Shown here piece by piece: positions 3,684 to 55,745 of a DNA stretch of 64,000 nucleotides. The stretch is from the IMG/VR virus record IMGVR_UViG_3300004369_000006, positions 19,288 through 83,287 of that record, one strand, 5' to 3'. The position numbers and the translations under genes were made by a program. The DNA comes from a virus. Within the stretch, counting starts at the first letter, position 1; every line of letters starts with the position of its first letter. The notes beneath the pieces are model-generated. The model was not told where the DNA came from. It made no database searches and was given only the letters and a program-made list of their open reading frames with translations.

Positions 3684-3709
3684 AAAAAGCCCCTAATTAA
3701 AGGGGCTTT
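3682..3709. terminator. Intrinsic terminator at the convergence of the two arms
   Basis: AAAGCCCCT-aattaa-AGGGGCTTT hairpin, with an A7 run on the left (U-tract on the minus strand). Confidence 0.8.
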
Positions 3710-3718
3710 CTAATCACA

Positions 3719-3913: not shown

Positions 3914-3921
3914 AACAAATC

Positions 3922-4386: not shown

Positions 4387-4408
4387 ACTGTAATGTTTTG
4401 GAATTCAA

Positions 4409-4416
4409 CAAATATA
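4409..4416 (-). promoter_or_regulatory. Bacteroidota sigma-A -7 element
   Basis: CAAATATA on + is TATATTTG on -, just after the 4419-4452 terminator and before the ATG at 4386. Confidence 0.55.
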
Positions 4417-4418
4417 GT

Positions 4419-4452
4419 AAAAAGGGACACACTTTTACATGTGCCCCCTTTT
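4419..4452 (-). terminator. Intrinsic terminator
   Basis: AAAAAGGGACACA...TGTGCCCCCTTTT imperfect inverted repeat flanked by A/T runs, downstream of the DUF932 gene. Confidence 0.65.
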
Positions 4453-4460
4453 ACATGGCT

Positions 4461-6630: not shown

Positions 6631-7483
6631 ATTCTTGTTTTGATATTAATTGTGATTCATAAAGTCCATCTATGCCTTCGATATCCATTGCTTGGTATAG
6701 CTCAATATTACTAGGTAATTTCATATTGAGTTTTTCTTCCCAAGCTTCTATTAGAATGTCAGACTTAGAAGTTATGCTACTAATAAAAATGTAATCTCGT
6801 TTAGGAAGACTATTCTTTAGATAACTCATATAGGTTACAGGTAGTAAACTGTATTGACTACGCATAATTGTATTGTAAGATTCAAACCAATAAGGCTTTG
6901 CAATCTTGCTTAGTACAATATAATTATCGTTACCATATGGAGTAGTAAAGACATAATTTTCTTCTAAACATTGAGATTCTACTAGATCTTTAAGTAGTTT
7001 AAATTGCTTATCATTTCGTATTTGCTTGTTATAATGCAATAAGAAATGCACAGCATAACGATATTTCTCTTGTTCTAGTTCAGGATAATATGCAAAAACA
7101 CCAAGGAATAAAGGACTTTCCATAATGTTAAATGCAATCTTACCTGCCGTAGCTGCAAGAAATACCTTAGAAGGATTCTCAATAAAACTATGTAGGGTAA
7201 TCTTCTTCATTGATTTGCTAAGATCAAACGTAGATATCTTAGCAATCTTAAATGGCAAAGACATTTTAATATTTATATCATCAGCAATAATAATATCTCC
7301 TACATTAATTACGTGATCTCCTATATAGAAAGTACCGCAGTAAGATTCCGTTACATTAATCTCTCCTTCGGCTTTTTCTTTAGTTAGGATAGTGCATTCA
7401 TATCCACTTACATGTACTTTGGTATTAGCATTTCTAATATCAATTACCTGTGGCTGGGTTGATGGTTGTATACTCATTGACAA
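6593..7483 (-). CDS. Hypothetical protein
   Basis: 296-aa ORF overlapping both neighbours. Confidence 0.6.
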   Translation of the reverse strand: MSMSIQPSTQPQVIDIRNANTKVHVSGYECTILTKEKAEGEINVTESYCGTFYIGDHVINVGDIIIADDINIKMSLPFKIAKISTFDLSKSMKKITLHSFIENPSKVFLAATAGKIAFNIMESPLFLGVFAYYPELEQEKYRYAVHFLLHYNKQIRNDKQFKLLKDLVESQCLEENYVFTTPYGNDNYIVLSKIAKPYWFESYNTIMRSQYSLLPVTYMSYLKNSLPKRDYIFISSITSKSDILIEAWEEKLNMKLPSNIELYQAMDIEGIDGLYESQLISKQEYERVKNLAGYMV

Positions 7484-25560: not shown

Positions 25561-25890
25561 TTAATCTAATTTATATTCGTTTTTAATGTGTTGTACAAAC
25601 TCAGGATCACTCTTTAGGATTCTGCACATATCTACATAGCGATGTAGTATATCACCATGAGTACGTGTTTCACCAAATAGATAGTTCTCAAGATTACGTA
25701 TGCCTACCATATCAATCATGATAGCATACTTAGTCAAGTCTTCATCTCGCATGATTTCAAAGTATGTAATGTTATCTAATGTTTGATAGTATGCATTCTG
25801 TATGTCATACTCTTCCTGATTCTTAGCGATGTATACATCTCTTTCAAGACGCAACTCTTCAGGGTCTAAATTACTGTTGTAATCTAACAT
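25561..25890 (-). CDS. Hypothetical protein
   Basis: 109-aa ORF. Confidence 0.55.
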   Translation of the reverse strand: MLDYNSNLDPEELRLERDVYIAKNQEEYDIQNAYYQTLDNITYFEIMRDEDLTKYAIMIDMVGIRNLENYLFGETRTHGDILHRYVDMCRILKSDPEFVQHIKNEYKLD

Positions 25891-25940
25891 GTGTTTAATA
25901 GATTTAAGTGTTCATTGTACGTGAACGTTATAGAATAGTG

Positions 25941-25970
25941 AAAAAAAAGCCCCGCTGTTACGCAGGGCTT
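25941..25970 (-). terminator. Intrinsic terminator
   Basis: A8 followed by GCCCCGC-tgttac-GCAGGGCTT, giving a hairpin plus U8 on the minus strand. Confidence 0.75.
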
Positions 25971-26006
25971 CTCCTAGAAACTAAAACCTCCTCAGATTGA
26001 GGAAGA

Positions 26007-26267
26007 TCATGAAAAGAACGACTCTTCTTCGCCAAACATATTATCCCACTGACTAGGGGAATAACCTGTAATCAACAACTCACGTTGCTCAGCAGGGATG
26101 TTTGGAAAAATATTTTGAATGTTTTCTTCGTCCACTAGCAGTCTTTGATACTGGTCTTCATGCACGATAAAATAGTGTGCGTTACCATCCGTGTCAATGA
26201 CTTGCATTTGGACTTGTCCTGGCTCAAGAGTCAAAAGCCTTTTGATAGAAATATTAGGATTTCTCAT
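26007..26267 (-). CDS. Conserved small phage protein
   Basis: IQNIFPNIPAEQRELLITG..PSQWDNMFG motif. Confidence 0.65.
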   Translation of the reverse strand: MRNPNISIKRLLTLEPGQVQMQVIDTDGNAHYFIVHEDQYQRLLVDEENIQNIFPNIPAEQRELLITGYSPSQWDNMFGEEESFFS

Positions 26268-35314: not shown

Positions 35315-35322
35315 TAGTTTTG
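35315..35322 (+). promoter_or_regulatory. Bacteroidota sigma-A -7 element upstream of scaffold/capsid genes
   Basis: TAGTTTTG with CTTG 20 nt upstream. Confidence 0.55.
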
Positions 35323-35358
35323 TAAAGAAGCAATAGGAGAACTTTAAATTAAAATAAT

Positions 35359-39835: not shown

Positions 39836-41068
39836 ATGAGCGAATTTCAAAAATCAACATTCCAAGTGCTCGTTGCAGGTACTACCGCAGGCTCTTATCA
39901 GCCTACTGGTACATTTAGTGATCTAAATGACTTCCTTGCAAACGGTGCTGACTTGGAGCTCGCTATGTTTGACGCTGCAGGTGGTGCTGTAGGTTCAGGA
40001 GATTCTTTCTTCTTCGTACTTAAAAATGCAAAAGAAGCTAATGGATTTGTCCGTTCAGAACTTATTAACCCTGCTAAAATTTCAAGTGCACGCTATGCAG
40101 ACTTTGCTGCTGGCACAAACCAAGTATCTTACATTGGGTTTAACGGAACTTCAGGATCATTTGATACACCTGCTGGTGGAGCTGGATTGCTTTACCAAGC
40201 TAACTTCATGATTCCTGAGTATGGTTCACACAGTGCAAATGACTTTGCAATCCGTCAAGGACACTACCAAGCTGCTGCTGCAGATGGTCAAGTACAAGTT
40301 GCTAACGGTCTTACCCAAAGTATTGTTTGGAACATGAGCCGTGATGCAGACACCATTATGCGTCCTCATCGTATTACTAGTAGTACTACTGCTACTCCAG
40401 CAGCTGGTGCTATTGTACCTACACTTGGACAAAAAGTAGTATCCGTTACTACTGCTCTTACAACTGCTATTCCTGCTGTAGGAGATTACTTAGGAATTAC
40501 TGTATCTGTAAACGGTTCTAACGTAATTACTTATTACAAAGTAGTTGCTATTAACAACGTAAACGGTGGTACAATTACTTTGGATACTGAATTCCAAGGA
40601 CCTACTGGTTCTGTAGCATTTGGTGCTCTTCGTGTTGTAACTGCTGCTAACGCTGCTTTAGGTAACTGGGGTATTGCTCTTGTAGGTGGTGACAAGAAAT
40701 TTGTACTTGGTAAAATGGAACTTGGTAAAATGAAGTTCACTACCACTTTGATTGACATGGGTACTACTACTCTTACTGACAAAGCTACTTCAGCTTATGT
40801 AGGTAATGGAGATGGTCGCCGTGTACAAGAGCTTGAGTGGGCTGGACAAGGAAATGAGCGTGATCTCTATCGTACGGGAGAACCTTATTTGTTTGACGAA
40901 GTAATCAATGCAGTTGCTGCTGCTTCTTATGATGTTGTAGCATTTAATTACTTCTCTGAAACAGAAAGTGAATTTGTGAATACACGTTCACCACGTCAGC
41001 TTTATGTAGCCGTTGAAGAATCAGAAGCTTCTTTGAAAGCAGACTTAACTGCTGCAGGGATTATCTAA
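39836..41068 (+). CDS. Abundant structural protein (auxiliary capsid protein-like)
   Basis: RSELINPAKI...GNGDGRRVQELEW..QG.ERD.YR...YDVV; Ala/Gly/Thr-rich, high-expression codons, followed by a terminator. Confidence 0.65.
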   Translation: MSEFQKSTFQVLVAGTTAGSYQPTGTFSDLNDFLANGADLELAMFDAAGGAVGSGDSFFFVLKNAKEANGFVRSELINPAKISSARYADFAAGTNQVSYIGFNGTSGSFDTPAGGAGLLYQANFMIPEYGSHSANDFAIRQGHYQAAAADGQVQVANGLTQSIVWNMSRDADTIMRPHRITSSTTATPAAGAIVPTLGQKVVSVTTALTTAIPAVGDYLGITVSVNGSNVITYYKVVAINNVNGGTITLDTEFQGPTGSVAFGALRVVTAANAALGNWGIALVGGDKKFVLGKMELGKMKFTTTLIDMGTTTLTDKATSAYVGNGDGRRVQELEWAGQGNERDLYRTGEPYLFDEVINAVAAASYDVVAFNYFSETESEFVNTRSPRQLYVAVEESEASLKADLTAAGII

Positions 41069-41102
41069 TAACTTCGACTACTTATTGCTATAAGTATTGT
41101 AT

Positions 41103-41138
41103 AAGAGAGGGGTACATGTATTGTACCTCTCTTTTTTT
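41103..41138 (+). terminator. Intrinsic terminator
   Basis: AAGAGAG.GGTACA-tgtat-TGTACCTCTC followed by T7. Confidence 0.85.
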
Positions 41139-41170
41139 ATTTCTAATTTTATAGCTAAATTCCTTATACT

Positions 41171-41755
41171 ATGAACTTTACTGCAACAGCAGCTACTAAT
41201 CAAAAGTCCATTGTTTTAGTGACAGATCTTGCAACAGTAAATGCAGATTATCCCGTATTAGAAATCTATATTAATAATACCCTGTTTGGAACGCTAGTTG
41301 TTGGAGGAAGTGTTACAGTAACAAATGGAACTACATATACTACTACATCAGGTATGTCTAACCTATTATTTACTGCATTAGGTTTAGACATGACTTTTAG
41401 TATTACTACTTCAGTACTAGGGCTTACAACACCTCCTGCAGCAGATGATATTTTAAACACTGGTATTTATCAATTCAAGTTGATTCCACAAAATGACAGT
41501 GTAAATTCAGAACAATACGCAGGAGAAGCAATTACACATGAGATTATGTGTTGCATTACGGATAAGCTATCTGATTTATATTGTGGAAATAGTACCTGCG
41601 ACAAAGGCGATGTACTAAAATCTGTTAGTAATATTAACGGAGCTATTACAGGGGCACGATATAGTGCTTTACAATTAAAATTTGATGATGCTATTTGTCT
41701 GTATAACGTAGCAAGTTCACTCTGTGGTTCTGACTGCGGATGTGGATGTAGCTAA
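41171..41755 (+). CDS. Tail hub-like protein with Cys-rich C-terminus
   Basis: CC...YCGNSTC...CGSDCGCGCS; precedes the fibre genes. Confidence 0.6.
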   Translation: MNFTATAATNQKSIVLVTDLATVNADYPVLEIYINNTLFGTLVVGGSVTVTNGTTYTTTSGMSNLLFTALGLDMTFSITTSVLGLTTPPAADDILNTGIYQFKLIPQNDSVNSEQYAGEAITHEIMCCITDKLSDLYCGNSTCDKGDVLKSVSNINGAITGARYSALQLKFDDAICLYNVASSLCGSDCGCGCS

Positions 41756-41765
41756 AAGATAAGCC

Positions 41766-42131
41766 ATGGCAAAGTATTTTGATGACGCATATATAGATGA
41801 TTTACTCGGACAGCTTTCTCAAGCTATTTGGCGTAAATCAGCTAAACTATGTCACGGGGTAGAAACAGGTGATTTTGATTGCAACTTTCTTGAGATTGAA
41901 GAAATCACTATCCTTGCAGATATTATTAAGAATCATCCTACTTGTATCAAGTCAGATGCTTCTTGGAATTGTATTATAGATCGGGTACAAGACTTTATTG
42001 ATACTTGTAACATTCCTGGTCCTGTATTACCGCCACAAATAGTAGTACCTAGCTGTGACGATAACAACATATTAACTGAAAACTTATTCTGTATCATTAC
42101 AGAACAAGGAGAATTTGTAATTATAGAATAA
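41766..42131 (+). CDS. Second hub/fibre-docking protein
   Basis: Cys-containing helical protein ending ILTENLFCIITEQGEFVIIE. Confidence 0.55.
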   Translation: MAKYFDDAYIDDLLGQLSQAIWRKSAKLCHGVETGDFDCNFLEIEEITILADIIKNHPTCIKSDASWNCIIDRVQDFIDTCNIPGPVLPPQIVVPSCDDNNILTENLFCIITEQGEFVIIE

Positions 42132-44065
42132 TGGCTACAAAGAAGGTATCGGGGATGACTCCCCTAACAATAGCTAATGTGACCTCTAATCACTTGATTA
42201 TGTCTGCAGATCCTTCAACGGTGAATAACTATTCAACTCCGTTTGAAGATTTGTTTCATAGTCTAGCAAATGCGCAGGTATCAGGTACAAGTTTATGGAG
42301 TGGTTTTAGTCGAACTACTTTGACATTTAAAACCTTACTTGCAGGTAGCAGTAAACTTACTATTGCTGATAGTGGTACTGCTATTACACTTGATGTAAAT
42401 GAATCTGCTCTTTCTTTAGCAAATATGACAGGGGTTGTGCCTTTGATTAATGGAGGTACACAAACTGCACTTACTGCTCCTCCTACCAATGCTTTAATGT
42501 ATTGGAATGTAGCAACTCAGCAAATGATGTGGTTGCAGTTAGGGACATATCTTAGTATTCAAGGAGGTAACACATTGGTATCTGCTGATTCAGATACTAC
42601 ATATACTGCAGGTAATGGATTGAACTTAGTAGGTACAGTATTTAGTGCCAACTTCGGTTCTACTGCTAATACAGTTACTGAAGGAGATACACAATATATT
42701 TTTACTGCAGGTTCAGGTATGTCGGGTGGTGGAACTATTACTTCAGGTGCAGGAGGTACAATTACCCTTACTAATGCAGACAAAGGTTCTGACCAGTTAG
42801 TATTTAAAAGAGTTGTAGGAGATGTAGGTGGATATGATACCGTATCTAATACTGACTTTCTTAATGTGTTAGGTGGTACAGGTATTGGTACAGTTGTTAC
42901 TCCTAATACAGTAACCATCAATAGCACCCTGAATATATGGAGCACAATCACCGCAGACTCTGGCAGCACAGCACCTTCAGTAGCAGCAGACACACTAACT
43001 ATTGCGGGTGGTACAGGTATAAGTACGACTTTAGTCGGAAACACTCTAACGATAAACAATACAGCAGGTGCAGCTGGAGAAGCAAATGATGGTATCAATA
43101 TTGGTACTGGTGCAGGTTCTATATATGCAGGAAAGTCAGGAGTAAGTTTACAGTTTAAATCTCTTGCTGCAGGTACTAATGTGAACATCACAAGTACTGC
43201 AGATACCATTACCATTAACTCTCCATTCCAAAATACCTTTAAAACTATTGCAGGCAATCTAGGAAACTATACAGCTTTAAGCTCTGCAGATACTATAAAC
43301 TTTATTGGAGAAGATGGTATATCAACTACCGTAGCAGGTAGCACTGTAACTATTACAGGAAACACTGCAGATAGCGGTTGGTTACCATTACCTATATGGA
43401 CAGGTGCTACTGGGGTACAGAACATTTTAAATATCCCTGAGCCACCTGAATTCCGTGTAGTGGGTCGTCAAGTATTCTTTAAAGGTTGGTTAGTTATTCC
43501 ATTGGATGATACATCAGGTGGTCTTGTAAATGACTTTGTAGCTATCCGTAGTACAAATGGCAATACGCCTTTGACTTCAGGTACGGGTATCAGTATTACA
43601 AATCTTACTGTGAGTATGCCTCCTATCTTTGCTAGTGGTACGTTATATCCTGATCAAACAATGCGTTTTAATGGATTGTTAGGATTCCGTAGAACTACGA
43701 CATCTGATACTTTTGATATGGTAACTGTTGTAGATCTTGAGTTTGACCAAGCAGGAGATGTATTTGTACATAGTATCCGTGATCGTGAAACTGCAGGTGG
43801 ATCTACTTTAATATACAATCAACTACGTAATATTATTACTGTAGTTGCTGCAGCAGATAGAGCTTTAGATTGGAGTACATATCGCAGTTCTGCAAACAGT
43901 GGTGGTACATTACAGAATCTAGTTACTGCGGGTACAGATACATTCCCAATATCTTTTGATGGTACAGATGCAGAAAACTTTGGTGGCGTATATATTCCAT
44001 TAGATGGATTAAGTTATCTTGTAGATCCTGATGACGATGTAGATACCATCCATTCTTCATACTAA
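42131..44065 (+). CDS. Tail fibre protein 1
   Basis: Gly/Thr-rich repeats (YTAGNGLNL, DTLTIAGGTGIST, LQFKSLAAG); C-terminal DSGW...FRVVGRQVFFKG beta head. Confidence 0.85.
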   Translation: MATKKVSGMTPLTIANVTSNHLIMSADPSTVNNYSTPFEDLFHSLANAQVSGTSLWSGFSRTTLTFKTLLAGSSKLTIADSGTAITLDVNESALSLANMTGVVPLINGGTQTALTAPPTNALMYWNVATQQMMWLQLGTYLSIQGGNTLVSADSDTTYTAGNGLNLVGTVFSANFGSTANTVTEGDTQYIFTAGSGMSGGGTITSGAGGTITLTNADKGSDQLVFKRVVGDVGGYDTVSNTDFLNVLGGTGIGTVVTPNTVTINSTLNIWSTITADSGSTAPSVAADTLTIAGGTGISTTLVGNTLTINNTAGAAGEANDGINIGTGAGSIYAGKSGVSLQFKSLAAGTNVNITSTADTITINSPFQNTFKTIAGNLGNYTALSSADTINFIGEDGISTTVAGSTVTITGNTADSGWLPLPIWTGATGVQNILNIPEPPEFRVVGRQVFFKGWLVIPLDDTSGGLVNDFVAIRSTNGNTPLTSGTGISITNLTVSMPPIFASGTLYPDQTMRFNGLLGFRRTTTSDTFDMVTVVDLEFDQAGDVFVHSIRDRETAGGSTLIYNQLRNIITVVAAADRALDWSTYRSSANSGGTLQNLVTAGTDTFPISFDGTDAENFGGVYIPLDGLSYLVDPDDDVDTIHSSY

Positions 44066-44075
44066 AAGCTAAGTA

Positions 44076-47000
44076 ATGCCTACAAAGAAGTATTCACAGT
44101 TTACCGCCATAACACTGAATGAAATCGACAGCAATAAGTTGGTTACATTCGGTGATCCAGTAGCGGTAGATAATTACTATATTCCTTATCCTGAGTTATT
44201 CCCACAAGGAAATACTGCAGGAGGCGGTACTTCTTTGTTGGAAAGTGTAGTAAAAACTACGCTTACATTTAAAAGCCTTACAGAGGGTTTAGGCATTGAC
44301 ATTAACGAGAACGTAGCAGGAGAGGTAGAAATAGCCGTAAACCCTGCGGAAATAAATATAAACGCATTCTCAGGTGTCTTATCCCTAGCCAATGGAGGTA
44401 CAGGTTCTTCACTTAGTGCACCAGGTGGTGCTGCATTCTTAGCATATGATCCTGTTAGTGGATTAGTAGATTGGACTTTAGTAGGTGGAGGATTAACTAT
44501 TGGAGGTGGTACAGTAAGTGCCAATGCTTATTATGCAGGTACAGGTCTTACGCTTACAGGTGGAGATACTTTTAATGTGGTATATGGAGGCTTTCCTAGT
44601 ACAGCAGTAGAGGGAGATACACAGATTATCATTAATGCAGGTACTGGATTAGCAGGTGGAGGAACTATCATCTTAGGTTTAGGTGGTAGTGTAACGCTTA
44701 CCAATAACGATACAGGGTCTGCACAGAATATATTTAAAACTGTAGTTACAGACTCAGGTTCTTTAGTAGCTACGAGTAATGTAAGTACGTTACCTATTGT
44801 TGGAGGAACTAACGTAAATACCTCGGTAGTTGGTAACCAAGTAATCATCAACGCAGAGAGCTCCTCATGCATTCCTTACAACATTGAGTACACTGCAGTA
44901 CCAGGAGCACTTCCTAGTGCAGGAGAAGCCATCTTTAATACCTCAGATGAGGTCATTAGAGTACATGCTATAGATTCAGATGGTAATAGTCACGTAAATG
45001 AGTTAGATACCAAGTTCTTATCAAGCAGAGCTTTTGGTATGTTTTGGGCTGATCAAGCTGCTCCATACTTAAACAATAGCAGTCAATACTTTGACCAGTG
45101 TCGTTTTAAAGTAGATAGTATATCATGTGCTACTGCGCCTTTAGGACAAGGAGTAAATCCTACTCAAGGAACTATTGGAGATAATGGGGGTACAGGTACG
45201 CCTTATACCATCATTTATTCAAGCACATTAAACGGACTTAAAAGCGGCGGTAGTTCTGCAACAGAAGTTGTAGTATATCTAGACCCTACTACTGCAGCTA
45301 ATGCCAAGCTTACTTACAAGCGTGAACAAGGCTTTGTATTGGATAGTTTAGGCACATCTGTTATGGCTATTGCCACAGGATATAATAATCCATCAGGCAT
45401 TACTACAGATCCTTTAGTTACTAATCCTTTTGCTATTTGGTTAGATAGTCAAATGACTACTCCTGCAGGTGCAGGTTTTTATATCCTTAAAAGCGAATAC
45501 AATAGCGCAGTACTGCCTAAGAATGCTACAGAGTATTTAGGTACTGGACAATGGAGTAACCTCTTCCCTGGTTGGGATTATGTTCCTGCTACGCCTACAG
45601 GTACATCTACACAGATATGTACTATTGTAGGATCTGTAATGTCCGCATCTAAAGTATCAAGTGGGGTATCTTTCTACTATGAAATCCCTTGGTTACCTAG
45701 TGAACAAATAGGTGGATATACACCAAGTTCTAGTACTTTATCTAGTCTATGTATTGACATGGCAGGTAAAGACTATTGTGGTACTACATCATCTGTAGTA
45801 GATTCTACCTCTGAAACAATAACGATAGTTGATTATTCATCTGCTACTAATATGTTAGCGCATGTAGATGAGAATTTAACTATCCGTATTATGACGCTTA
45901 ATACAGGAGCAGGTACTACACAAAATCTATGGGAAACTATAACATCAGATAGTGGAAGTACCACTGCAGATGATCCTAATGATACCTTAACCATTGCAGG
46001 AGGTAATTTACTTACTACTTCTATTGTAGGAGATACATTAACTATAGATCATGATAACATTGGTACTCCTTCTGTATCAGGTAACAGTTTAGATATTATT
46101 ACTTCTGTTACTACAGATAGTGTAGGACATATTACAGCATTTGGACAAACATCTGTCGGACCTTTTGACAATTACAATAATTGGCAACTAAGAGTAGATG
46201 GTGGTACTGCTGATAGCATACTTACAGGACAGACTGTAAATGTCAATGCAGGTACAAATGTAACTTTAGGATATACCTCATCTACGAATACGTTAGTAAT
46301 CAATGCTACTGATACTGATACTAATACTACGTATGATTTAGACTCAATTCAAGTTGGAGCTAATGCAGCTATTACTTTAGTTGGTTCAGATGCTACTACA
46401 GATACAGTAACTCTAGTAGCTGGTACAAATATAACTTTAACAGACGATGGGTCTGCTAATATTACTATCGATGCTGCTGATACTAATACTACATATGATT
46501 TAGCGTCAGCACAAAACGGCACAGATGTAGATGTGACTTTAACTGGTTCTGATGCAAGTGTAGACACAATAACACTTGTAGCTGGTTCAAATGTGACTTT
46601 AACAGACGATGGTTCTAATAATATCACCGTAACGACTACTGATACTACGTATTCTGCAGGCACAGGGTTATCGTTAGTAGGTACTACCTTTAACAATACA
46701 GATCCTGGTTCAGCACAGAACATCTTTAAAAATATTGAAGTAGCAACTCAGTCTACAATTATTGCAGACAGTAACAATGATACTTTAACCATTGTACAAG
46801 CAAATGGTATTAATCTTACTACTGACGCAGGTACAGATACCTTAACTATAGATTCTACTATCTATGACATTGGGGTTCCTGCAGCTACTACAACTATACG
46901 CTTATCAGGTACTGGTGGTGGAGATGATCTTAGTACATCAGACATTACACTAAGTGCAGGTACAGGTATTTCTTTAAGTCATATCTCTACTTCTGAAATA

Positions 47001-47825
47001 CAAATTAGTGCTCCAGTATTTAGATCTCTTCCTGTTCCTAAAGTAGAGCTATTAAGCTATGAGCCAGGATCAGTAATAGTAGGATCCTCTTATCCTGATG
47101 TAACTATAGAATGGTTTGATTCAGTTACTAATAGTGCTGGAGGTACATTGAGTGTAGCTAAAGCTCCTTATGTAGTTGCTATGGATATTACAGATGAGAT
47201 GATTACTCAAGGAGTTTTTGTAGAAATGGTTTATTATCGGGGTAGATATGGTGCAGGTAAAAAGAGTTATGTAGCTCCTGCTCCTTATATTAGTGGGGCA
47301 AATCCTTTAGAAACTTTATATGGAAACCTAAATACACGTTCTGGTATTCATACTACAAGTGCAGGTCCTGTTTTTGTTCCTTTAGGTATAGATAAGCCTA
47401 ATCATTATCAGGTTACAAGTCCTAGTCAAACCATTAATGTATATGAGTATCTTAATGGTATGTTTACTCTTGCGCCAGTTAAATACAGAGATACTACAGG
47501 AACTACTCAGACACAATCATGTCCAGTTCCTGTTTCAAAACAAACTACTCGCTTTGATAGACCAAGTAGTAGGTTTGCTTATGGTAGCAATTATAGTCCG
47601 CTATATATTGCTTTTAGATATATCATGCGTGATAGTGGTGCTAATGGAGGCAACGGTGCTTTCATTTCAGGACCTCTATCCCATCCAATTGCTGTAGCAG
47701 CAAAGTATCATCCTTTTGTACAGGATCCGCTTACTACAGCCACGGTAGGTTTACCTACATGTACAATTCATCCTTTGTTTAATTCAGGAGTATTAAATTG
47801 TTGGCATGTTAATAGATTACCGTGA
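44076..47825 (+). CDS. Tail fibre protein 2 (1249 aa) with distinct C-terminal globular domain
   Basis: N-terminus paralogous to fibre 1 (TTLTFKSL, LANGGTG); repeated GSAQNIFK / DTLTI / AGTGLSL modules; ends TGA TAA. Confidence 0.85.
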   Translation: MPTKKYSQFTAITLNEIDSNKLVTFGDPVAVDNYYIPYPELFPQGNTAGGGTSLLESVVKTTLTFKSLTEGLGIDINENVAGEVEIAVNPAEININAFSGVLSLANGGTGSSLSAPGGAAFLAYDPVSGLVDWTLVGGGLTIGGGTVSANAYYAGTGLTLTGGDTFNVVYGGFPSTAVEGDTQIIINAGTGLAGGGTIILGLGGSVTLTNNDTGSAQNIFKTVVTDSGSLVATSNVSTLPIVGGTNVNTSVVGNQVIINAESSSCIPYNIEYTAVPGALPSAGEAIFNTSDEVIRVHAIDSDGNSHVNELDTKFLSSRAFGMFWADQAAPYLNNSSQYFDQCRFKVDSISCATAPLGQGVNPTQGTIGDNGGTGTPYTIIYSSTLNGLKSGGSSATEVVVYLDPTTAANAKLTYKREQGFVLDSLGTSVMAIATGYNNPSGITTDPLVTNPFAIWLDSQMTTPAGAGFYILKSEYNSAVLPKNATEYLGTGQWSNLFPGWDYVPATPTGTSTQICTIVGSVMSASKVSSGVSFYYEIPWLPSEQIGGYTPSSSTLSSLCIDMAGKDYCGTTSSVVDSTSETITIVDYSSATNMLAHVDENLTIRIMTLNTGAGTTQNLWETITSDSGSTTADDPNDTLTIAGGNLLTTSIVGDTLTIDHDNIGTPSVSGNSLDIITSVTTDSVGHITAFGQTSVGPFDNYNNWQLRVDGGTADSILTGQTVNVNAGTNVTLGYTSSTNTLVINATDTDTNTTYDLDSIQVGANAAITLVGSDATTDTVTLVAGTNITLTDDGSANITIDAADTNTTYDLASAQNGTDVDVTLTGSDASVDTITLVAGSNVTLTDDGSNNITVTTTDTTYSAGTGLSLVGTTFNNTDPGSAQNIFKNIEVATQSTIIADSNNDTLTIVQANGINLTTDAGTDTLTIDSTIYDIGVPAATTTIRLSGTGGGDDLSTSDITLSAGTGISLSHISTSEIQISAPVFRSLPVPKVELLSYEPGSVIVGSSYPDVTIEWFDSVTNSAGGTLSVAKAPYVVAMDITDEMITQGVFVEMVYYRGRYGAGKKSYVAPAPYISGANPLETLYGNLNTRSGIHTTSAGPVFVPLGIDKPNHYQVTSPSQTINVYEYLNGMFTLAPVKYRDTTGTTQTQSCPVPVSKQTTRFDRPSSRFAYGSNYSPLYIAFRYIMRDSGANGGNGAFISGPLSHPIAVAAKYHPFVQDPLTTATVGLPTCTIHPLFNSGVLNCWHVNRLP
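46317..46640 (+). repeat. Tandem 162-bp (54-aa) duplication in fibre 2
   Basis: GATACTAATACTACnTATGATTTA at 46317 and 46479; DTNTTYDL...TLVAG.N.TLTDDGS.NIT occurs twice. Confidence 0.85.
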
Positions 47826-47834
47826 TAAACTTTT

Positions 47835-47923
47835 GGGTGAGAGATTGTCCATGGTTGCCCTTTCGGGGGCAGCACTCGTTCAAGGCTCCTTCTTCGGAGG
47901 AAGTCGTTGTTCACCTCTCATCC
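47835..47923 (+). ncRNA. Putative structured RNA: symmetric three-way junction with two UUCG-capped arms
   Basis: P1 47835-43/47915-23; P2 47854-61/47866-73 (UUCG loop); P3 47884-92/47897-905 (cUUCGg loop); each junction contains UYGUYCA; G-U pairs favour the + strand. Confidence 0.65.
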
Positions 47924-47952
47924 CTCGAATATAATTAAACACTATATATAAA

Positions 47953-49053
47953 ATGGGTAATCATCCTTTACTTATTGACACTACTGGAAGTGCCCAAGAT
48001 CTTTGGGCAACTATTAATTCTGATTCAGGTACAACTACTGCTAATAGTCCTACAGATATTCTTACAATTTCAGGAGCAGGTTCTGTTAGTACATCTATTA
48101 CAGGAGATACCTTAACTATTACAGGTATAAATACTACATACTCTGCAGGTACAGGATTGGATTTAGTAGGTACAGTATTTAGCCATACAGATACTTCTTC
48201 AGTAGCAGATGTTGGACCATTGACAACATGGGATGTAATTGACGAAATTACCTTTGATACTTATGGTCACGTACTTACAGTAGGTACTCGCAGTTTATAT
48301 ACTGCAACCTTAGATATTGGATTTGGTTTATCTTCTGATTTAAATACTGCAGGTGTATTAGATATCTATAATACAGAGACTTTAAACATCAATGCAGGTA
48401 ATGATATTAATACAGGTACTGCTCCATCTTTACGTACAGAAACTACTACAGCTACTCCTGATACTTTACAAGTATATCACTTGGCTAATTTGCCTGGTGC
48501 TGATCTTACAAGCAGTACAGGATATGTTTGGGACATTGATATTGAGCATGGTCACGTAGTAAACCTAAATACAGGTAGTCAACCTATTGCTAAGTTTACT
48601 GATACACTGTTTCAGTTTGTAAACAGTGTTGATAATAGTAAAATAGTTGACTTTGATTTAACCAGTCTTACTACAGGAACTACACGTACTGTTACATTTC
48701 CTAACCAAGACTTAAATATCCAAACAGATATCTTAGATAAAATTGATTTATCTATTCAGAATCTTACTACGAATAGTAAAATATTAGCATTATCAGATAT
48801 AAATAATTATATCCGTTTATCTGACCCTACTAGTGTAACAGTAGAGATACCTCCTGTATCCAGTGTTGCTTTTCCTGTAGGTAGTCAGATTATTCTAGTA
48901 CAAAGTGGTGTAGGTCCTATTGAAGTAGTTGCAGGTTCAGGTGTTACTATAACAAGTCCTGATGGATTACTAGCTACACGTACACAATATTCTGCTATAG
49001 TACTTATTCATTATGCCACAGACAATTGGGAATTAGGAGGTGATTTAGCATGA
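47953..49053 (+). CDS. Tail fibre protein 3
   Basis: Shares the GSAQDLWATI.SDSG and YSAGTGLDL modules, FDTYGHV; C-terminal FPVGSQIILVQSGVG...TQYSAIVL...W.LGGDLA domain. Confidence 0.8.
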   Translation: MGNHPLLIDTTGSAQDLWATINSDSGTTTANSPTDILTISGAGSVSTSITGDTLTITGINTTYSAGTGLDLVGTVFSHTDTSSVADVGPLTTWDVIDEITFDTYGHVLTVGTRSLYTATLDIGFGLSSDLNTAGVLDIYNTETLNINAGNDINTGTAPSLRTETTTATPDTLQVYHLANLPGADLTSSTGYVWDIDIEHGHVVNLNTGSQPIAKFTDTLFQFVNSVDNSKIVDFDLTSLTTGTTRTVTFPNQDLNIQTDILDKIDLSIQNLTTNSKILALSDINNYIRLSDPTSVTVEIPPVSSVAFPVGSQIILVQSGVGPIEVVAGSGVTITSPDGLLATRTQYSAIVLIHYATDNWELGGDLA

Positions 49054-49820
49054 TAAAACTAGCAGTCATAGGAGTATTAAGTAAAGGAGTTGTAACTCAA
49101 GTTCCAACTCTTATTACATCGAATCTTGTATTGCATTACAATTTTGAGGATCCATCTTCGTATTCAGGCTCAGGCACTACAATAAATGACCTAAGTACAT
49201 CATCTTATTCTGCCACCGCTCTTAATGGGGTATTGTTTAACAGTACAACACCGAAGTCTTTTGACTTTGATGGGGTAGATGATATTTTAGAATTACAAGC
49301 CAGCGTTCCTAATATTAGACCAAACACAACTGCGTTCAATGCTAATGGATTTAGTATTTCTGCTTGGGTGCAATTTGACAAATATGGCTTCCAAGGCGTT
49401 TTTTGTACAGACGGGGCTAATTATTTACCGAATTATTATGGTTCTGAGTTATTTATGAATGGAAGCGGATATTTAGGAATGGCAATAAATAATGGCGGGG
49501 TCGCAGGCAGTTCATCTCGCAGAACACGCATATCTACTTTCCAACCAACACTTGGACAATGGTATTATGCTACTGCTAACTTTGACAACATAAACCCTTT
49601 GAATTGGAACATTTATGTTAATGGTAGCATTGTTAGTATGAACTCTCCATCAGGTTCTGCATCATCTATTGGATATAGTTCTACGGAGAGAGCCGCAGTA
49701 GGTACGCGTAGACAAAATGAGCTTGATGGAGAAGTGGCAATGGTTCATGTTTATGACAGAAAATTAACCTCTTCAGAAATACTGCAAAACTACAACGCAA
49801 CAAAATCTAATTTCCCATGA
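49050..49820 (+). CDS. LamG/concanavalin A-like lectin domain protein (receptor-binding candidate)
   Basis: LVLHYNF..PSSYSGSGTTINDLS, FDFDGVDD, FSISAWV, WYY, IYVNG, YDRKLTSSEILQNYNA. Confidence 0.88.
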   Translation: MIKLAVIGVLSKGVVTQVPTLITSNLVLHYNFEDPSSYSGSGTTINDLSTSSYSATALNGVLFNSTTPKSFDFDGVDDILELQASVPNIRPNTTAFNANGFSISAWVQFDKYGFQGVFCTDGANYLPNYYGSELFMNGSGYLGMAINNGGVAGSSSRRTRISTFQPTLGQWYYATANFDNINPLNWNIYVNGSIVSMNSPSGSASSIGYSSTERAAVGTRRQNELDGEVAMVHVYDRKLTSSEILQNYNATKSNFP

Positions 49821-50065
49821 TATCTCCTCGGACATACATTATCATAATGAGCGCAGACTTGCCTAAAGTAGACTTTAGTGAAGTGTTGCAAACAAGTGAA
49901 GAAACAGTGCGAAAAAGTATTGACGGAACAAAAACAGTGCTAAAGTATGAGGGGAGTATGCCAAGTTCTATTGTTAATTTATCATATAAAGAAGGGGCTT
50001 ATACTCACGAAGAAATTATGATTATTTTAGCAGGAGAGGAGTGGACAATAAATGAACCATATTAA
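49817..50065 (+). CDS. Small protein commonly paired with LamG fibre tips (possible chaperone)
   Basis: VDFSEVLQTSEETVRKSIDGTKTVLKYEG..P...YTHEEI..IL.GEEW; ATGA overlap with the LamG gene. Confidence 0.65.
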   Translation: MISPRTYIIIMSADLPKVDFSEVLQTSEETVRKSIDGTKTVLKYEGSMPSSIVNLSYKEGAYTHEEIMIILAGEEWTINEPY

Positions 50066-50829: not shown

Positions 50830-52244
50830 GTTTAGGTTTAGGATTATATTTAAATATTGGAAGCATTGCAGCAGCAGTACAGTCTGGTTTGTTAGATACC
50901 TACACGGGTGCAGTAGCGGGTTATTCTTTGCGCAAGATATCCTCAACGGCTACTAATTCATTACGAGTACGGCGTTCTTCAGACAATGCAGAAACCGATA
51001 TAGGATTTGCAGAAGATGGCAATTTAGATAATGCTGCATTGCTTGCATTTGTAGGAACTGGAGGGACTGATAACGGATATGTAACAACGTGGTATGACCA
51101 ATCAGGAAACTCAAGGAACGCTACACAAACTTCTGCAACGGCTCAGCCACAAATCGTAAGCGCAGGGAACATCATTACTGTTAATGGCTATCAGGTTATT
51201 AAGTATGACGGAAGTAATGATACTCTCAACGCTAATTTAGCAGGGACTGGGCGGGATATGTTAATGGGCGGAAGCGATGGTAGTGCTTTCTACGGCTTTA
51301 GTAGTAGCGTAACTACTTATAGTACATTACCGAGTACAAACAACACAAAGCACCCATTGAACGAAAGCATTCGTGTTATATGGGGCAGGAGTTTAAGTGG
51401 GGCTGAAAAAACAGGCATTCAAACTGATGTAACTTACACGGATTGGGTTTGGTCAGATATTACGAACCTCGGTGGCTATTGGCATACCAGAAGTGAAATA
51501 ACAGACTTCCCATCGATTGATACAAGCAACGGAACAAACTTTACTTTAGCGTGGTACAATTGCACTAACATGACATCATTTCCTTTATTAGATGTTAGTA
51601 ACGGTACTTCTTTTCAACTTACATGGAATCTTTGCACATCACTAACCTCCTTCCCTTTATTAAATACAAGCAGTGGTACAAACTTTTTCATGGCATGGTA
51701 TCTTTGCACATCACTAACCTCCTTCCCTTTATTAGATACAAGCAGTGGTACAAACTTTTCTTACGCATGGGCGGATTGCCGTGCCTTAACATCATTCCCT
51801 GCATTAGATGTAAGCAATGGTACTAATTTTCAAAATGCATGGTTCAATTGCAATTCACTAACATCATTCCCTGCATTAGATGTTAGTAGCGGTACTACCT
51901 TTCAAAATGCATGGAGAGGTTGCTCATCACTAACCTCCTTCCCTGCATTAGATGTTAGTAACGGTACTACTTTTCAACTTGCATGGCGGAGTTGCATAGC
52001 ACTTCAACACTTCCCTGCCAATATGTTTGATAGCGTAACGGCTACGAATTTTGGACAGGCATTTACCAGCACCAACCTCACTCAAACATCAATAGACAAC
52101 ATTCTCACTTCCATAGACACTGCAAACACTTCTAACGGTACTTTTAACCAATCAGGAGGTTCAGCACCAAGTGCAGCAGGAGAAGCTGCGATAAACAATC
52201 TAAGAGCGCGAGGATGGACAGTAACAGTAACTGGAGGATATTAA
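50826..52244 (+). CDS. BspA/DUF285-like leucine-rich repeat surface protein with phage N-terminal anchor
   Basis: GYSLRK...RVRRSSDNAETDIGF...WYDQSGN; about 7 repeats of 24 aa (FP.LDVS.GT.F..AW..C.SLTS); L.ARGWTV cap. Confidence 0.85.
   Translation: MSLGLGLYLNIGSIAAAVQSGLLDTYTGAVAGYSLRKISSTATNSLRVRRSSDNAETDIGFAEDGNLDNAALLAFVGTGGTDNGYVTTWYDQSGNSRNATQTSATAQPQIVSAGNIITVNGYQVIKYDGSNDTLNANLAGTGRDMLMGGSDGSAFYGFSSSVTTYSTLPSTNNTKHPLNESIRVIWGRSLSGAEKTGIQTDVTYTDWVWSDITNLGGYWHTRSEITDFPSIDTSNGTNFTLAWYNCTNMTSFPLLDVSNGTSFQLTWNLCTSLTSFPLLNTSSGTNFFMAWYLCTSLTSFPLLDTSSGTNFSYAWADCRALTSFPALDVSNGTNFQNAWFNCNSLTSFPALDVSSGTTFQNAWRGCSSLTSFPALDVSNGTTFQLAWRSCIALQHFPANMFDSVTATNFGQAFTSTNLTQTSIDNILTSIDTANTSNGTFNQSGGSAPSAAGEAAINNLRARGWTVTVTGGY
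51506..52015 (+). repeat. 72-bp tandem repeats encoding LRR units
   Basis: Recurrent TTCCCT(GCA/TTA)TTAGAT...GGTAC...GCATGG...TGC with 72-bp period. Confidence 0.9.
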
Positions 52245-54670: not shown

Positions 54671-54688
54671 TATATTTGTATAAATTTG
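54671..54688 (+). promoter_or_regulatory. Two adjacent TAnnTTTG elements
   Basis: TATATTTG (54671) and TAAATTTG (54681) upstream of the ATG at 54709. Confidence 0.5.
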
Positions 54689-54708
54689 AGAACTTTAAAT
54701 TAAAAACA

Positions 54709-54933
54709 ATGGCAGAAGTAAGCACAGAAGAACAAAAAGTTACAGAGGAACCCACTGTACTACCTTTTCATTTTACAATTGATGAGATTAACACGTTGTA
54801 TGTAGCAGCGTCCAATATGCCGTTCAAACAAGTGCATGCATTAATGGGTAACATTAAAGCACAATTTGATAAGCACATTGCTGATAATCCTGAACTTGTA
54901 AAAGAGCAAGAGGCAGCTAACGCTAGTGCATAA
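54709..54933 (+). CDS. Small monocistronic hypothetical protein
   Basis: FTIDEINTLY...MPFKQVHALM.NIKAQ; flanked by a promoter and a terminator. Confidence 0.65.
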   Translation: MAEVSTEEQKVTEEPTVLPFHFTIDEINTLYVAASNMPFKQVHALMGNIKAQFDKHIADNPELVKEQEAANASA

Positions 54934-54962
54934 TTATTGCCTAGAGTAAAACATTTAATTGG

Positions 54963-54998
54963 GAGTCCTACTGTATTTTATATATGGTAGGACTTTTT
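54963..54998 (+). terminator. Intrinsic terminator
   Basis: AGTCCTAC...GTAGGACT followed by TTTT. Confidence 0.75.
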
Positions 54999-55013
54999 AT
55001 ATAATAAACGAAT

Positions 55014-55745
55014 ATGACACTGACAGAAATAGTTTACGATATTCGAGAAAAGATTTCCGAAACTGTAGATGATAGCGACATCACTGATCGCTATATTATT
55101 TTTGAGTTTAATGCTCAGCGTGAGCTCATGCTAAAGAATGAGTTCAACAAAAATCATCGTGCTGTAGATATCCAGTATCAGCAAAGTTTTTGCGTAGATA
55201 TGGAAGTCGCTAGTGCAAGTGACTGTAACTGCGATGATTTGACTTGTGGTATTATGCGTACTGTAAAGCAGATGCCTATGTTTGTTAGACTGCATGGAGG
55301 TCCTTTGATTACTCGTGTAGGTCCCTATAACGATAGGAGTGCTTTGCCATTTAGTTATGTAGATTATAACCGTGCTATTAGATCAGGGTATGATCAGTTT
55401 ACCGAGGATACGGTATATGCTTTCTTATACACTGATGGACGCATTTATCTAAAGAGTGGTAATAAGCTAGTGAATGCTATTCAGAAATTGAATATTTCAG
55501 GGGTATTCGCTAATCCATTAGACGCTAACAACTACGATAATTGTAACATTACTAATGCAAATGATCCCTGTTTTGATCCTGTAAAGACACGTTATCCAAT
55601 TACAGGAGATTTGTATGTCTACATCCGTGAACAGGTTATTGAGCAATTATTACGTAAATTAGCTAAGGGAGAAGACTTGAAAAATGATTCAGCTTTAGCA
55701 ATGAATATGTCTATCCCTAAACGTCAAAGCAATTCAAATGAGTGA
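55014..55745 (+). CDS. Tail ring protein
   Basis: MTLTEIVYDI...DDSDITDRYI...R..L...SGVFANP...YPI. Confidence 0.75.
   Translation: MTLTEIVYDIREKISETVDDSDITDRYIIFEFNAQRELMLKNEFNKNHRAVDIQYQQSFCVDMEVASASDCNCDDLTCGIMRTVKQMPMFVRLHGGPLITRVGPYNDRSALPFSYVDYNRAIRSGYDQFTEDTVYAFLYTDGRIYLKSGNKLVNAIQKLNISGVFANPLDANNYDNCNITNANDPCFDPVKTRYPITGDLYVYIREQVIEQLLRKLAKGEDLKNDSALAMNMSIPKRQSNSNE

What the first reader, a model, noticed from the sequence alone, without database searches (positions are those of the whole stretch)
47835..47923. Three-fold-symmetric three-way-junction RNA directly after the long tail-fibre gene: a possible RNA partner for a trimeric fibre
Seen in sequence: 10 nt after the stop of the 1249-aa fibre gene there is a GC-rich 89-nt island in AT-rich DNA. 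It folds into a closing stem (GGGUGAGAG/CUCUCAUCC) and two UUCG-capped arms (GUUGCCCU-UUCG-GGGGCAGC; GGCUCCUUC-UUCG-GAGGAAGUC). The three stems share no sequence. The three 9-10 nt junction strands all carry the same motif: UUGUCCA (47845), UCGUUCA (47876) and UUGUUCA (47907), exactly 31 nt apart. G-U pairs and UUCG loops work only on the + (mRNA) strand. There is no U-tract, so it is not an intrinsic terminator. Established: phage fibres are homotrimers, and UUCG is an exceptionally stable RNA tetraloop. Inference: a pseudo-C3 RNA with three equivalent single-stranded sites suits binding by a homotrimer. The obvious candidate is the upstream fibre's C-terminal domain. Possible roles are a template for co-translational trimerisation, an autoregulatory switch for the downstream fibre/LamG genes, or an RNA carried on the virion. 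I do not recognise it as a known RNA family.
Basis: partly seen in the sequence, partly recalled or inferred. Interest (0 to 1): 0.9.

Follow-up and report, generated by a model that had tools for sequence, protein, structure and literature searches.

The report
Three-armed RNA behind phage fibre gene
A folded three-armed RNA carrying the same short motif three times sits directly behind one family of phage tail-fibre genes in every relative found, matches no catalogued RNA family, and its job is still unknown.

Summary
Window 47835-47923 (+) folds into a closing stem and two UUCG-capped arms. Three junction strands carry U-Y-G-U-Y-C-A, 31 nt apart. It is the most GC-rich and most stably folding 90-nt stretch of the 83-kb phage genome.

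It is not chance. Twelve distinct copies were found, and all lie directly behind a gene ending in the same about 270-aa fibre C-terminal domain. Nine came from protein searches, one from a covariance model and two from a DNA pattern alone. The stems share no sequence but stay paired: 13 of 16 pairs show compensating changes. The core G-U-N-C is kept in 29 of 33 junction strands. The sense strand folds better in 12 of 12 copies. Rfam has no match.

Six of 12 relatives carry a U-run after the closing stem. The window copy does not.

My best reading is a cis-acting intercistronic RNA of the fibre operon that acts as a terminator, attenuator or decay barrier and offers three equivalent protein sites. 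Binding by the trimeric fibre tip remains possible but untested.

This scan has noted the same or a sister family before on other DNA (e1-5817004, e1-5764911, e1-5321665). I found no paper describing it.

The parts
47835..47843 (+). Closing stem P1, 5' arm (pairs with 47915-47923)
   Evidence: The helix is recovered by RNAalifold on MAFFT-only alignments.
47844..47853 (+). Junction strand J1, with motif UUGUCCA at 47845-47851 (core GUCC at 47847)
   Evidence: G-U-N-C is invariant in alignment A2.
47854..47873 (+). Arm P2: 8-bp hairpin with a UUCG loop (47862-47865) and two U-G pairs
   Evidence: In variant X7 the pair 47857/47870 changes from G-C to U-A.
47874..47883 (+). Junction strand J2, with motif UCGUUCA at 47876-47882
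47884..47905 (+). Arm P3: 9-position hairpin with a UUCG loop (47893-47896) and one C-A mismatch
   Evidence: In variant X7 the pair 47886/47903 changes from C-G to U-A.
47906..47914 (+). Junction strand J3, with motif UUGUUCA at 47907-47913
47915..47923 (+). Closing stem P1, 3' arm; no U-run follows it
47016..47825 (+). C-terminal about 270-aa domain of the 1249-aa fibre gene (44076-47825). This domain precedes every copy of the RNA.
   Evidence: AF2 model with pLDDT 74.5, beta-rich. pI 8.7.
47953..49053 (+). Downstream 366-aa fibre-like gene, starting MGNHP 29 nt after the RNA. There is no promoter-like box in the gap.

Best explanation
The element is one member of an uncatalogued family of structured RNAs. 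Each is a three-way junction of about 90 nt, read on the mRNA strand, lying in the spacer directly behind one family of tail-fibre genes and 14-43 nt ahead of the next fibre gene.

Shown: the fold, its conservation through compensating changes, its strand, its fixed position, the thrice-repeated G-U-N-C(-A) core, and the fixed count of two inner arms.

Inferred mechanism: it works in cis as punctuation inside the fibre operon. The fast-folding arms with UNCG loops let the closing stem snap shut behind the fibre cistron. In lineages with an A-run, the stem and a U-run, this terminates or attenuates transcription. In all lineages it would block 3'-to-5' decay. The long-fibre message then gets a stable end, and the downstream fibre genes, which have no promoter of their own in the gap, are made in smaller amounts. 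The three equivalent single-stranded motifs are most likely the docking sites of a three-part or three-copy factor, still unidentified, that tunes this.
For: Conservation:
- 12 of 12 distinct copies share the architecture and the position.
- On MAFFT-only alignments RNAalifold recovers all three helices. 13 of 16 pairs (8 sequences) and 13 of 14 pairs (10 sequences) show both-side changes.
- 80.5% of cells are paired against 62.5% in shuffles. 0 of 500 shuffles reach the observed pairing, the number of compensated pairs or the covariation score, and all slid controls are lower.
- A near-identical freshwater variant has 11 substitutions in the 89 nt, against 6 in 232 flanking nt. They include two compensating double changes and none in the G-U-Y-C cores.

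RNA and strand:
- The sense strand has the lower MFE in 12 of 12 copies.
- In my curated model of 9 copies, 22 of 217 pairs are G-U, against only three A-C/C-A mismatches.
- 10 of 18 loops are UNCG.

Punctuation role:
- 6 of 12 copies have a run of 5-9 U within 12 nt of the closing stem, and these have 8-9 A in the 12 nt before it.
- The start codon lies 14-43 nt downstream, and no TAnnTTTG box lies in the gap outside the element in any copy, the only match lying inside the L008 element itself. Such boxes do lie in other gaps of this genome (at 35315, 50162, 54671, 61881).

Three sites:
- G-U-N-C occurs in 29 of 33 junction strands. The spacing is 29-36 nt, and 30-33 in eight of the nine copies where it could be measured.
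- 11 of 12 copies have exactly two inner arms, although five are perfect or near-perfect tandem repeats that could easily change in number.
Against: - The window copy and L002, L003, L006 and L020 have no U-run. Termination therefore cannot be the shared function, yet the fold is under selection in the window lineage too.
- This phage uses plain hairpin-plus-U terminators elsewhere, so the elaborate junction is not needed merely to terminate.
- A decay barrier does not explain the three conserved single-stranded motifs.
- There are no transcript ends. Only assembled contigs were available.
- In copies with identical arms, the MFE structure is a cross-paired long hairpin rather than the junction.
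Confidence: 0.45

Rival explanations
1. The pseudo-three-fold RNA is the partner of the homotrimeric C-terminal domain encoded just upstream. Each of the three G-U-N-C-A strands would bind one subunit. The RNA would serve as a trimerisation scaffold at the end of the message, as an autoregulatory operator, or as a virion-bound RNA.
For: - Strict co-occurrence of the RNA and the domain in 12 of 12 copies. This includes two copies found by DNA pattern alone, in phages of 37% and 63% GC, and both of two consecutive domain-bearing genes in L005.
- All 9 loci found through the domain carry the RNA.
- The number of sites is held at three in 11 of 12 copies, despite the tandem-repeat nature of the units.
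- The domain is basic, pI 8.7-9.8, on an otherwise acidic fibre.
- In L020 the downstream N-terminus differs while the upstream domain is kept.
Against: - The two features lie 8-74 nt apart and would be co-inherited anyway.
- Most copies were found through the domain, which is an ascertainment bias.
- The domain has no RNA-binding family or fold match.
- The core motif is more conserved than the protein, which is 31-46% identical to the window copy. That is not what a co-evolving pair would predict.
- No binding test was possible.
Confidence: 0.15
2. It is a leader of the downstream fibre gene. The folded junction, 14-43 nt before the start codon, would set or gate translation initiation of the gene that starts M-[GA]-x-[HYQN]-P.
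For: - The distance to the start codon (14-43 nt) is tighter than the distance from the upstream stop (8-74 nt).
- 11 of 12 downstream genes share the N-terminal motif.
- Notes from this scan describe other three-armed leader RNAs before fibre genes, which I did not check.
Against: - In the window, the start region stays unpaired in the fold.
- I found no complement of the motif within 1.5 kb.
- L020 keeps the RNA but has a different downstream N-terminus.
Confidence: 0.15
3. It is a trans-acting or stable small RNA released from the 3' end of the fibre message. It would act as a sponge, decoy or antitoxin-like repeat RNA whose three motifs titrate a host or phage protein.
For: - Repeated single-stranded motifs between stable hairpins resemble protein-sponge RNAs (recalled knowledge).
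- Terminator-like ends in 6 of 12 copies would release such an RNA.
- The units are tandem repeats in five copies.
Against: - No promoter-like box lies in front of it.
- The window copy has no 3'-end signal.
- There is one copy per genome.
- The downstream gene is fibre-like and not a ToxN-type nuclease. Pfam finds no family and PHROGs gives tail proteins.
Confidence: 0.1
4. It is a ligand-sensing riboswitch-like aptamer whose closing stem doubles as the terminator.
For: The three-way-junction architecture with a closing stem next to a U-run in 6 of 12 copies.
Against: - There is no Rfam match, even at E up to 10.
- Only nine or so conserved junction bases exist, repeated three times, rather than an asymmetric pocket.
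- There is no alternative antiterminator pairing.
- The fibre-gene context suggests no metabolite.
Confidence: 0.04
5. It acts at the DNA level, as iterons or palindromic protein sites, a cruciform, a recombination site, or the hairpin of a diversity-generating retroelement target.
For: - Motifs spaced about three helical turns apart, with T-G-T-A-C-A-like half-palindromes.
- Position at the 3' end of a receptor-binding gene.
Against: - 22 G-U pairs against three A-C.
- The sense strand folds better in 12 of 12 copies.
- UNCG loops.
- The two arms of one copy differ in sequence.
- The genome has no reverse transcriptase.
- No template-repeat copy appears in the repeat scan.
Confidence: 0.03

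Closest known systems
Intrinsic (Rho-independent) terminators and attenuators, including those flanked by an A-run and a U-run
   Same: A GC-rich closing stem on the mRNA strand at the end of a cistron. In 6 of 12 relatives it is followed within 2 nt by 5-9 U and preceded by an A-run. UNCG-type loops are common caps of terminator hairpins (recalled).
   Different: The 'loop' is a conserved 70-nt two-armed junction with three repeated motifs. The window copy and four others have no U-run. Plain terminators elsewhere in this genome are simple hairpins.
Intercistronic mRNA punctuation elements: T7 RNase III processing sites and REP-type stabilisers (recalled knowledge)
   Same: A stable structure between cistrons of a long phage late operon. 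It would be expected to set differential stability or dosage.
   Different: Those elements are single long hairpins, with an internal loop, or palindromic repeats present in many copies. This one is a single-copy branched junction with a sequence motif, and processing was not tested.
phi29-family prohead RNA (pRNA; Rfam Phage_pRNA)
   Same: A phage-encoded RNA built around a three-way junction that works with a symmetric protein assembly (recalled).
   Different: There is no Rfam match. The element lies in the fibre operon as part of an mRNA, not as a separate gene near the genome end. It has an internal three-fold repeat within one molecule rather than an oligomeric ring, and no loop-loop complementarity was noticed.
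RNAs that bind symmetric oligomers through repeated short motifs: HutP (UAG triplets on a three-fold face) and TRAP (11 triplets) (recalled knowledge)
   Same: Several equivalent, regularly spaced single-stranded motifs. In those systems binding controls a terminator.
   Different: There the motifs are triplets 2-4 nt apart on a linear strand. Here they are 5-nt cores about 31 nt apart, presented by a junction, and no such protein was identified.
Three-fold-symmetric fibre-associated RNAs noted earlier by this scan (e1-5817004, e1-5764911; CTTTAG-motif version e1-5321665 and e1-5323172)
   Same: A three-armed junction carrying one motif three times, directly behind a basic fibre-like gene of uncultured phages.
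   Different: These are unpublished AI notes. I could not see their sequences, so I have not tested whether they are the same family. One version carries a different motif.

Membership tests
Intrinsic terminator | GC-rich stem-loop on the transcribed strand | tested here: met
   A 9-bp closing stem, but it encloses a 71-nt branched interior, which is atypical.
Intrinsic terminator | U-tract directly 3' of the stem | tested here: not met
   In the window the ten bases after the stem are CTCGAATATA, with a longest T run of 1. The feature is met in 6 of 12 relatives, with 5-9 U.
Intrinsic terminator | Transcript 3' ends at the site | not testable with these tools
   Only assembled contigs were available. 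The one RNA-run contig stops at 47836, but so does a DNA contig.
Any Rfam 15 family | Covariance-model score at or above the gathering threshold | tested here: not met
   No match in the 64-kb window. Nothing on the element at E up to 10. In 10 related loci only tRNAs matched.
phi29-type pRNA | Match to the pRNA model, and a separate RNA gene near the genome end next to the packaging genes | tested here: not met
   No Rfam match. The element lies between two fibre genes inside an operon.
Diversity-generating retroelement target hairpin | Reverse transcriptase and a template repeat in the same genome | tested here: not met
   No RVT_1 match in the complete genome, while the control genomes gave matches. 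No repeat of the gene's 3' end was found.
Type III toxin-antitoxin repeat RNA (ToxI-like) | Tandem RNA repeats followed by a ToxN/AbiQ-type nuclease gene | tested here: not met
   The downstream gene is fibre-like. PHROGs gives tail families and Pfam gives none.
New fibre-3' three-way-junction RNA family (defined here) | Closing stem, two capped arms and three junction strands with G-U-N-C, on the sense strand behind the conserved fibre C-terminal domain | tested here: met
   Window copy. Model R1 scores it at 62.1 bits, E 1e-12. The domain lies upstream.

The most novel reading that the evidence does not exclude
One RNA molecule with three equivalent arms and three identical single-stranded sites is the dedicated partner of a homotrimeric tail-fibre tip domain encoded immediately upstream. 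It would gather or hold three freshly made C-terminal domains at the end of their own message, as an RNA scaffold for trimerisation. Alternatively it would feed back on the operon, or ride on the virion. RNA-templated assembly of a phage fibre would be a new kind of protein-RNA relationship.
Probability: 0.15. Interest if true: 0.9.

Novelty: new variant of a known kind. Interest (0 to 1): 0.72.

Why it matters
Phage tail-fibre operons decide host range, yet how the doses of their many fibre proteins are set is largely unknown. In Bacteroidota-type phages, which lack Shine-Dalgarno-driven translation, almost nothing is known.

This is a compact RNA fold of about 90 nt that has been kept across phages from 30% to 63% GC. 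Its internal three-fold repeat is rare among known RNAs, and it is tied strictly to one fibre-tip domain.

If it is a tunable terminator or decay barrier, it is a new regulatory module for phage engineering and annotation. If it binds the trimeric tip, it would be the first RNA partner of a fibre. Either way it deserves a covariance model in Rfam, and it is small enough for direct structural and binding work.

Tried and rejected
Searches that gave nothing:
- Megablast of 47000-48800 against cultured phages.
- tblastn of the domain from the window and from L009 against cultured phages.
- Close-relative scan of viral contigs with the window domain.
- Exact arm-1 string.
- Strict symmetric pattern.
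- Wider-geometry pattern.
- Protein scan of prokaryote genomes.

Scans with mostly false hits:
- Pattern AGGGA..GTTCA.. gave 4 loci, of which only L018 is real, and it duplicates L009.
- The loop-and-motif pattern in prokaryote genomes gave 65 loci, and I judged none to be a member. Model R1 matched 12 of them at E of 1 or less. I looked only at the two best, L029 and L062, which are 10-nt tandem repeats. Of the 3 viral loci, L019 is also a tandem repeat.
- The scan with the downstream N-terminus found only L011, another duplicate of L009.

Ideas rejected:
- tRNA or tmRNA.
- A dispersed repeat or mobile element: there is one copy per genome.
- A DGR target.
- Pairing of the motif with a nearby complement: there were no hits within 1.5 kb beyond chance.
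- A conserved small ORF across the element: it is open in L009 but stopped in L010, from my reading.
- For a time I thought the gene upstream of L005a lacked the domain. hhalign showed that it has it, with E 3.9e-67.

Other negative or inconclusive results:
- Model R1 missed the GC-rich copy L020 at E of 1 or less, so its sensitivity is limited.
- Fold search of the domain: Foldseek found no match at E of 0.001 or less, and VIA-align found only generic FN3/Ig-like rows at Z 7.8 or less. This is no evidence about RNA binding.
- RNA evidence: the one metatranscriptome run (X24) has contigs over 47300-47836 and 48115-48290 and none over the element. This shows nothing, because contigs break there in DNA runs too.

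Literature: four searches found no description of such an RNA.
- 0 papers.
- I read the listings only.
- I read passages of PMC11697453 with 'find'. It gives no RbpB motif that matches.
- Supplementary files were not opened.

Full report
THE OBSERVATION

The 1249-aa fibre gene ends at 47825 with TGA followed by TAA. It has a 9-bp closing stem, an 8-bp arm and a 9-position arm, both capped by UUCG, and three junction strands of 9-10 nt. These strands carry UUGUCCA, UCGUUCA and UUGUUCA at 47845, 47876 and 47907, 31 nt apart.

The three-way junction is both the MFE and the centroid structure, at -36.3 kcal/mol with z -3.14, and 0 of 200 shuffles fold as well. In the whole 83,287-bp genome it is the most GC-rich 90-nt window: 0.567 against a mean of 0.359, sd 0.053. 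It is also the lowest-energy window on the + strand out of 8,320 windows. The genome is an IMG/VR record with direct terminal repeats.

Other checks:
- The element occurs once in the genome.
- It is not a tRNA.
- It matches no Rfam family.
- It has no U-run behind it.

THE SETTING

PHROGs identifies the terminase, portal and major head protein upstream and fibre-like proteins around the element. Pfam finds only a LamG-type domain, on the 256-aa gene.

A simple ORF map shows one + strand block from about 41171 to 50065. It holds genes of 194, 121, 644 and 1249 aa, then the element, then genes of 366, 256 and 82 aa.

The genome uses plain hairpin-plus-U terminators elsewhere. Examples lie in the gaps 41064-41175 and 54929-55018 on +, and 25886-26011 and 4382-4465 on -.

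TAnnTTTG boxes are the Bacteroidota -7 element. The motif is recalled, and it is also named in a first-stage note. Such boxes lie in several gaps just before genes (35315, 50162, 54671, 61881). None lies between 47826 and 47952. The 366-aa gene, which starts 29 nt after the element, is therefore most likely transcribed through it.

RELATIVES

- A search with the last 275 residues of the fibre found four homologues, at 91%, 40%, 39% and 34% identity.
I therefore scanned the collections with an alignment of these proteins. This gave 2 loci in viral contigs and 7 in metagenome contigs.
- In all 9 loci the spacer behind the homologous gene holds the same design. It has a closing stem, two capped hairpins, and three junction strands each with G-U-[U/A/C]-C, usually GUUCA or GUACA. 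L004 duplicates L002.
- Covariance model R1 was built from a plain MAFFT alignment. It scored these copies at 60-84 bits, E 1e-12 to 5e-18.
- R1 also found a second, weaker copy in L005 (23.7 bits), behind the preceding gene.
- R1 found no second copy in the window genome or in the two viral contigs that were held.
- A DNA pattern made only of the motif and the loops found two further members in viral contigs. The pattern was GTTCA, N10, TNCG, N11-12, GTWCA, N10, TNCG, N11-12, GTWCA.
  - L021 comes from a 434-kb contig and scores 40.8 bits with R1.
  - L020 comes from a 54.5-kb contig of 63% GC. It is on the minus strand, has perfect 30-nt repeats and a long closing stem, and R1 missed it.
- Profile comparison shows that the genes upstream of L005a, L005b, L021 and L020 all end in the same domain. 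The E-values are 3.9e-67, 1.7e-50, 2.4e-35 and 9.5e-10, the last on a cut ORF.
- So 12 of 12 distinct copies follow that domain, and all 9 loci found through the domain have the RNA.
- Eleven of 12 downstream genes start M-[GA]-x-[HYQN]-P. L020 starts differently.
- No cultured phage and no prokaryote genome gave a homologue.

IS IT AN RNA STRUCTURE?

Covariation:
- On sequence-only alignments RNAalifold recovers all three helices. 13 of 16 pairs (8 sequences) and 13 of 14 pairs (10 sequences) show changes on both sides.
- In the pair count, 80.5% of cells are paired against 62.5 +/- 2.8% in shuffles.
- 0 of 500 shuffles reach the observed pairing, the number of compensated pairs or the covariation score, and every slid control is lower.
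- In my curated model of nine copies, each position of the two arms shows 2-5 different standard pair types, apart from one position held by a single copy. I chose these pairs myself, so this part is descriptive and not a test.

Strand:
- The curated model holds 217 pairs, of which 22 are G-U. Only three 1x1 mismatches are A-C or C-A, the kind that would be wobble pairs on the other strand.
- The sense strand has the lower MFE in 12 of 12 copies.
- Ten of 18 loops are UNCG, and most of the others also begin with U.

Microdiversity:
- A freshwater run (X7) holds a variant with 11 substitutions inside the 89 nt, against 6 in the 232 flanking nt of the same contig.
- 47857/47870 turns G-C into U-A, and 47886/47903 turns C-G into U-A.
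- Two single changes keep a pair: C-G to U-G, and U-G to C-G.
- One terminal pair is lost.
- Three changes lie in junction strands but outside the G-U-Y-C cores.
- A second contig from that run has more differences that the table did not list.

A caveat: where the two arms are identical (L003, L007, L020, L021, and nearly so in L009), the MFE is a cross-paired long hairpin. In those copies the junction cannot be told apart from it. The copies with unlike arms (window, L006, L008) fold only as the junction.

THE MOTIF AND THE THREE-FOLD DESIGN

- G-U-N-C is present in 29 of 33 junction strands in the 11 copies with two arms. It is missing from one strand of L003 and from all three strands of L005a.
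- Spacing between successive motifs could be measured in nine copies. It is 30-33 nt in eight of them, and 29 and 36 nt in L002.
- The motif usually starts 3-4 nt after the preceding helix (my reading).
- Within a genome the three strands agree over more bases than they do between genomes. Examples are GAAGU[U/A]CAUCG in L009 and CAAGUUCAUU in L020.
- Eleven of 12 copies have exactly two inner arms, although tandem repeats of about 31 nt should gain or lose units easily. L005b seems to have three arms.
- I found no complementary partner for the motif within 1.5 kb.

TERMINATOR FEATURES

- Six of 12 copies have 5-9 U within 12 nt of the closing stem and 8-9 A in the 12 nt before it. These are L005a, L005b, L007, L008, L009 and L010.
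- L021 has four U.
- The window, L002, L003, L006 and L020 have none.
- The gap from the closing stem to the start codon is 14-43 nt. The gap from the stop codon to the stem is 8-74 nt.
- No TAnnTTTG box lies in any gap outside the element itself.

THE UPSTREAM DOMAIN

- It has no Pfam family in 7 of 7 members.
- It has no PDB relative by sequence; the best E-value is 0.85.
- The AlphaFold2 model has pLDDT 74.5 and pTM 0.75, and is mostly beta.
- Foldseek finds no match. VIA-align gives only FN3/Ig-like rows at Z 7.8 or less, which the tool itself calls middling.
- Its pI is 8.7-9.8 in seven members.

INTERPRETATION

Shown: this is a conserved structured RNA on the sense strand. It has a fixed position behind one fibre-tip domain, three equivalent motifs, and no catalogued relative.

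Inferred: it acts in cis within the fibre operon. The A-run, stem and U-run geometry in half of the copies, the absence of a promoter in the gap, and the fast-folding caps together point to a terminator, attenuator or decay-barrier role that sets the dose of downstream fibre genes. Because the fold is also maintained in lineages without a U-run, termination cannot be the whole story. The three motifs and the fixed number of arms suggest a factor with three sites.

But simple linkage predicts that co-occurrence equally well, and binding is untested. I give it about 0.15. The remaining readings are weaker: a leader of the downstream gene, a released small RNA, a riboswitch, and a DNA site. The DNA reading is close to excluded.

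WHAT IS KNOWN

- Rfam 15 has no match in the window or in ten related loci.
- Four literature searches gave no description. I read only the listings and, for PMC11697453, found passages.
- Earlier notes from this scan describe what appears to be the same or a sister family on other DNA. e1-5817004 and e1-5764911 describe a three-armed RNA with one motif three times between or behind fibre genes. e1-5321665 and e1-5323172 describe a version with a CTTTAG motif behind a basic fibre-like gene.
- Those are unchecked AI notes. I could not see their sequences, and sequence look-ups found no overlap.
- Comparisons with HutP, TRAP, pRNA, ToxI, T7 RNase III sites and REP elements rest on my recall.

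VERDICT

This is a real, undescribed RNA family. Its mechanism is open, with a cis-acting punctuation role the most likely. The trimer-partner idea is alive but unproven.

Noticed in passing
L005:332-8679: Two consecutive genes (1519 aa and 483 aa) both end in the conserved fibre C-terminal domain, and each is followed by its own copy of the RNA (4966-5055 and 6572-6680). The first copy has degenerate motifs and a U9 run. The second seems to have three inner arms.
   Followed up: partly
window 47953-47980; L002-L010 and L021 downstream starts: Genes after the RNA differ in length (195 to more than 1278 aa) and in content. But 11 of 12 begin M-[GA]-x-[HYQN]-P-x-[ILV]-x-D, which may be a shared N-terminal anchor. 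L020 begins differently.
   Followed up: partly
window 35315-35358 and 54671-54708: Two late-gene leaders share a TAnnTTTG box followed by the same 18-nt stretch (GAGAACTTTAAATTAAAA) just before the start codon. This may be a common leader or translation signal of highly expressed genes.
   Followed up: no
window 51573-52016: Six tandem 72-nt (24-aa) repeats lie inside the 472-aa gene, which suggests a leucine-rich-repeat-like receptor-binding protein.
   Followed up: no
window 46310-46633; 42594-42645, 46642-46713, 48131-48202: The fibre gene contains an internal 162-nt duplication. Three neighbouring fibre genes, including the one after the RNA, share a 52-72-nt block, which suggests module exchange between fibres.
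   Followed up: no
L021:3979-6925: A cluster of 12 tRNA genes lies about 3 kb upstream of the fibre gene in a 434-kb viral contig, which is a jumbo phage.
   Followed up: no
window 3679-3926, 4382-4465, 25886-26011, 41064-41175, 54929-55018: These gaps hold canonical hairpin-plus-U intrinsic terminators, one of them flanked by A and U runs on both strands. They show that the phage uses ordinary terminators elsewhere.
   Followed up: partly
L029:3562-3650, L062:7813-7898: Long 10-nt tandem repeats (TTCGTGTTCA) occur in a Verrucomicrobia genome and in an archaeal MAG. They matched the search pattern by chance and are unrelated to the RNA.
   Followed up: no
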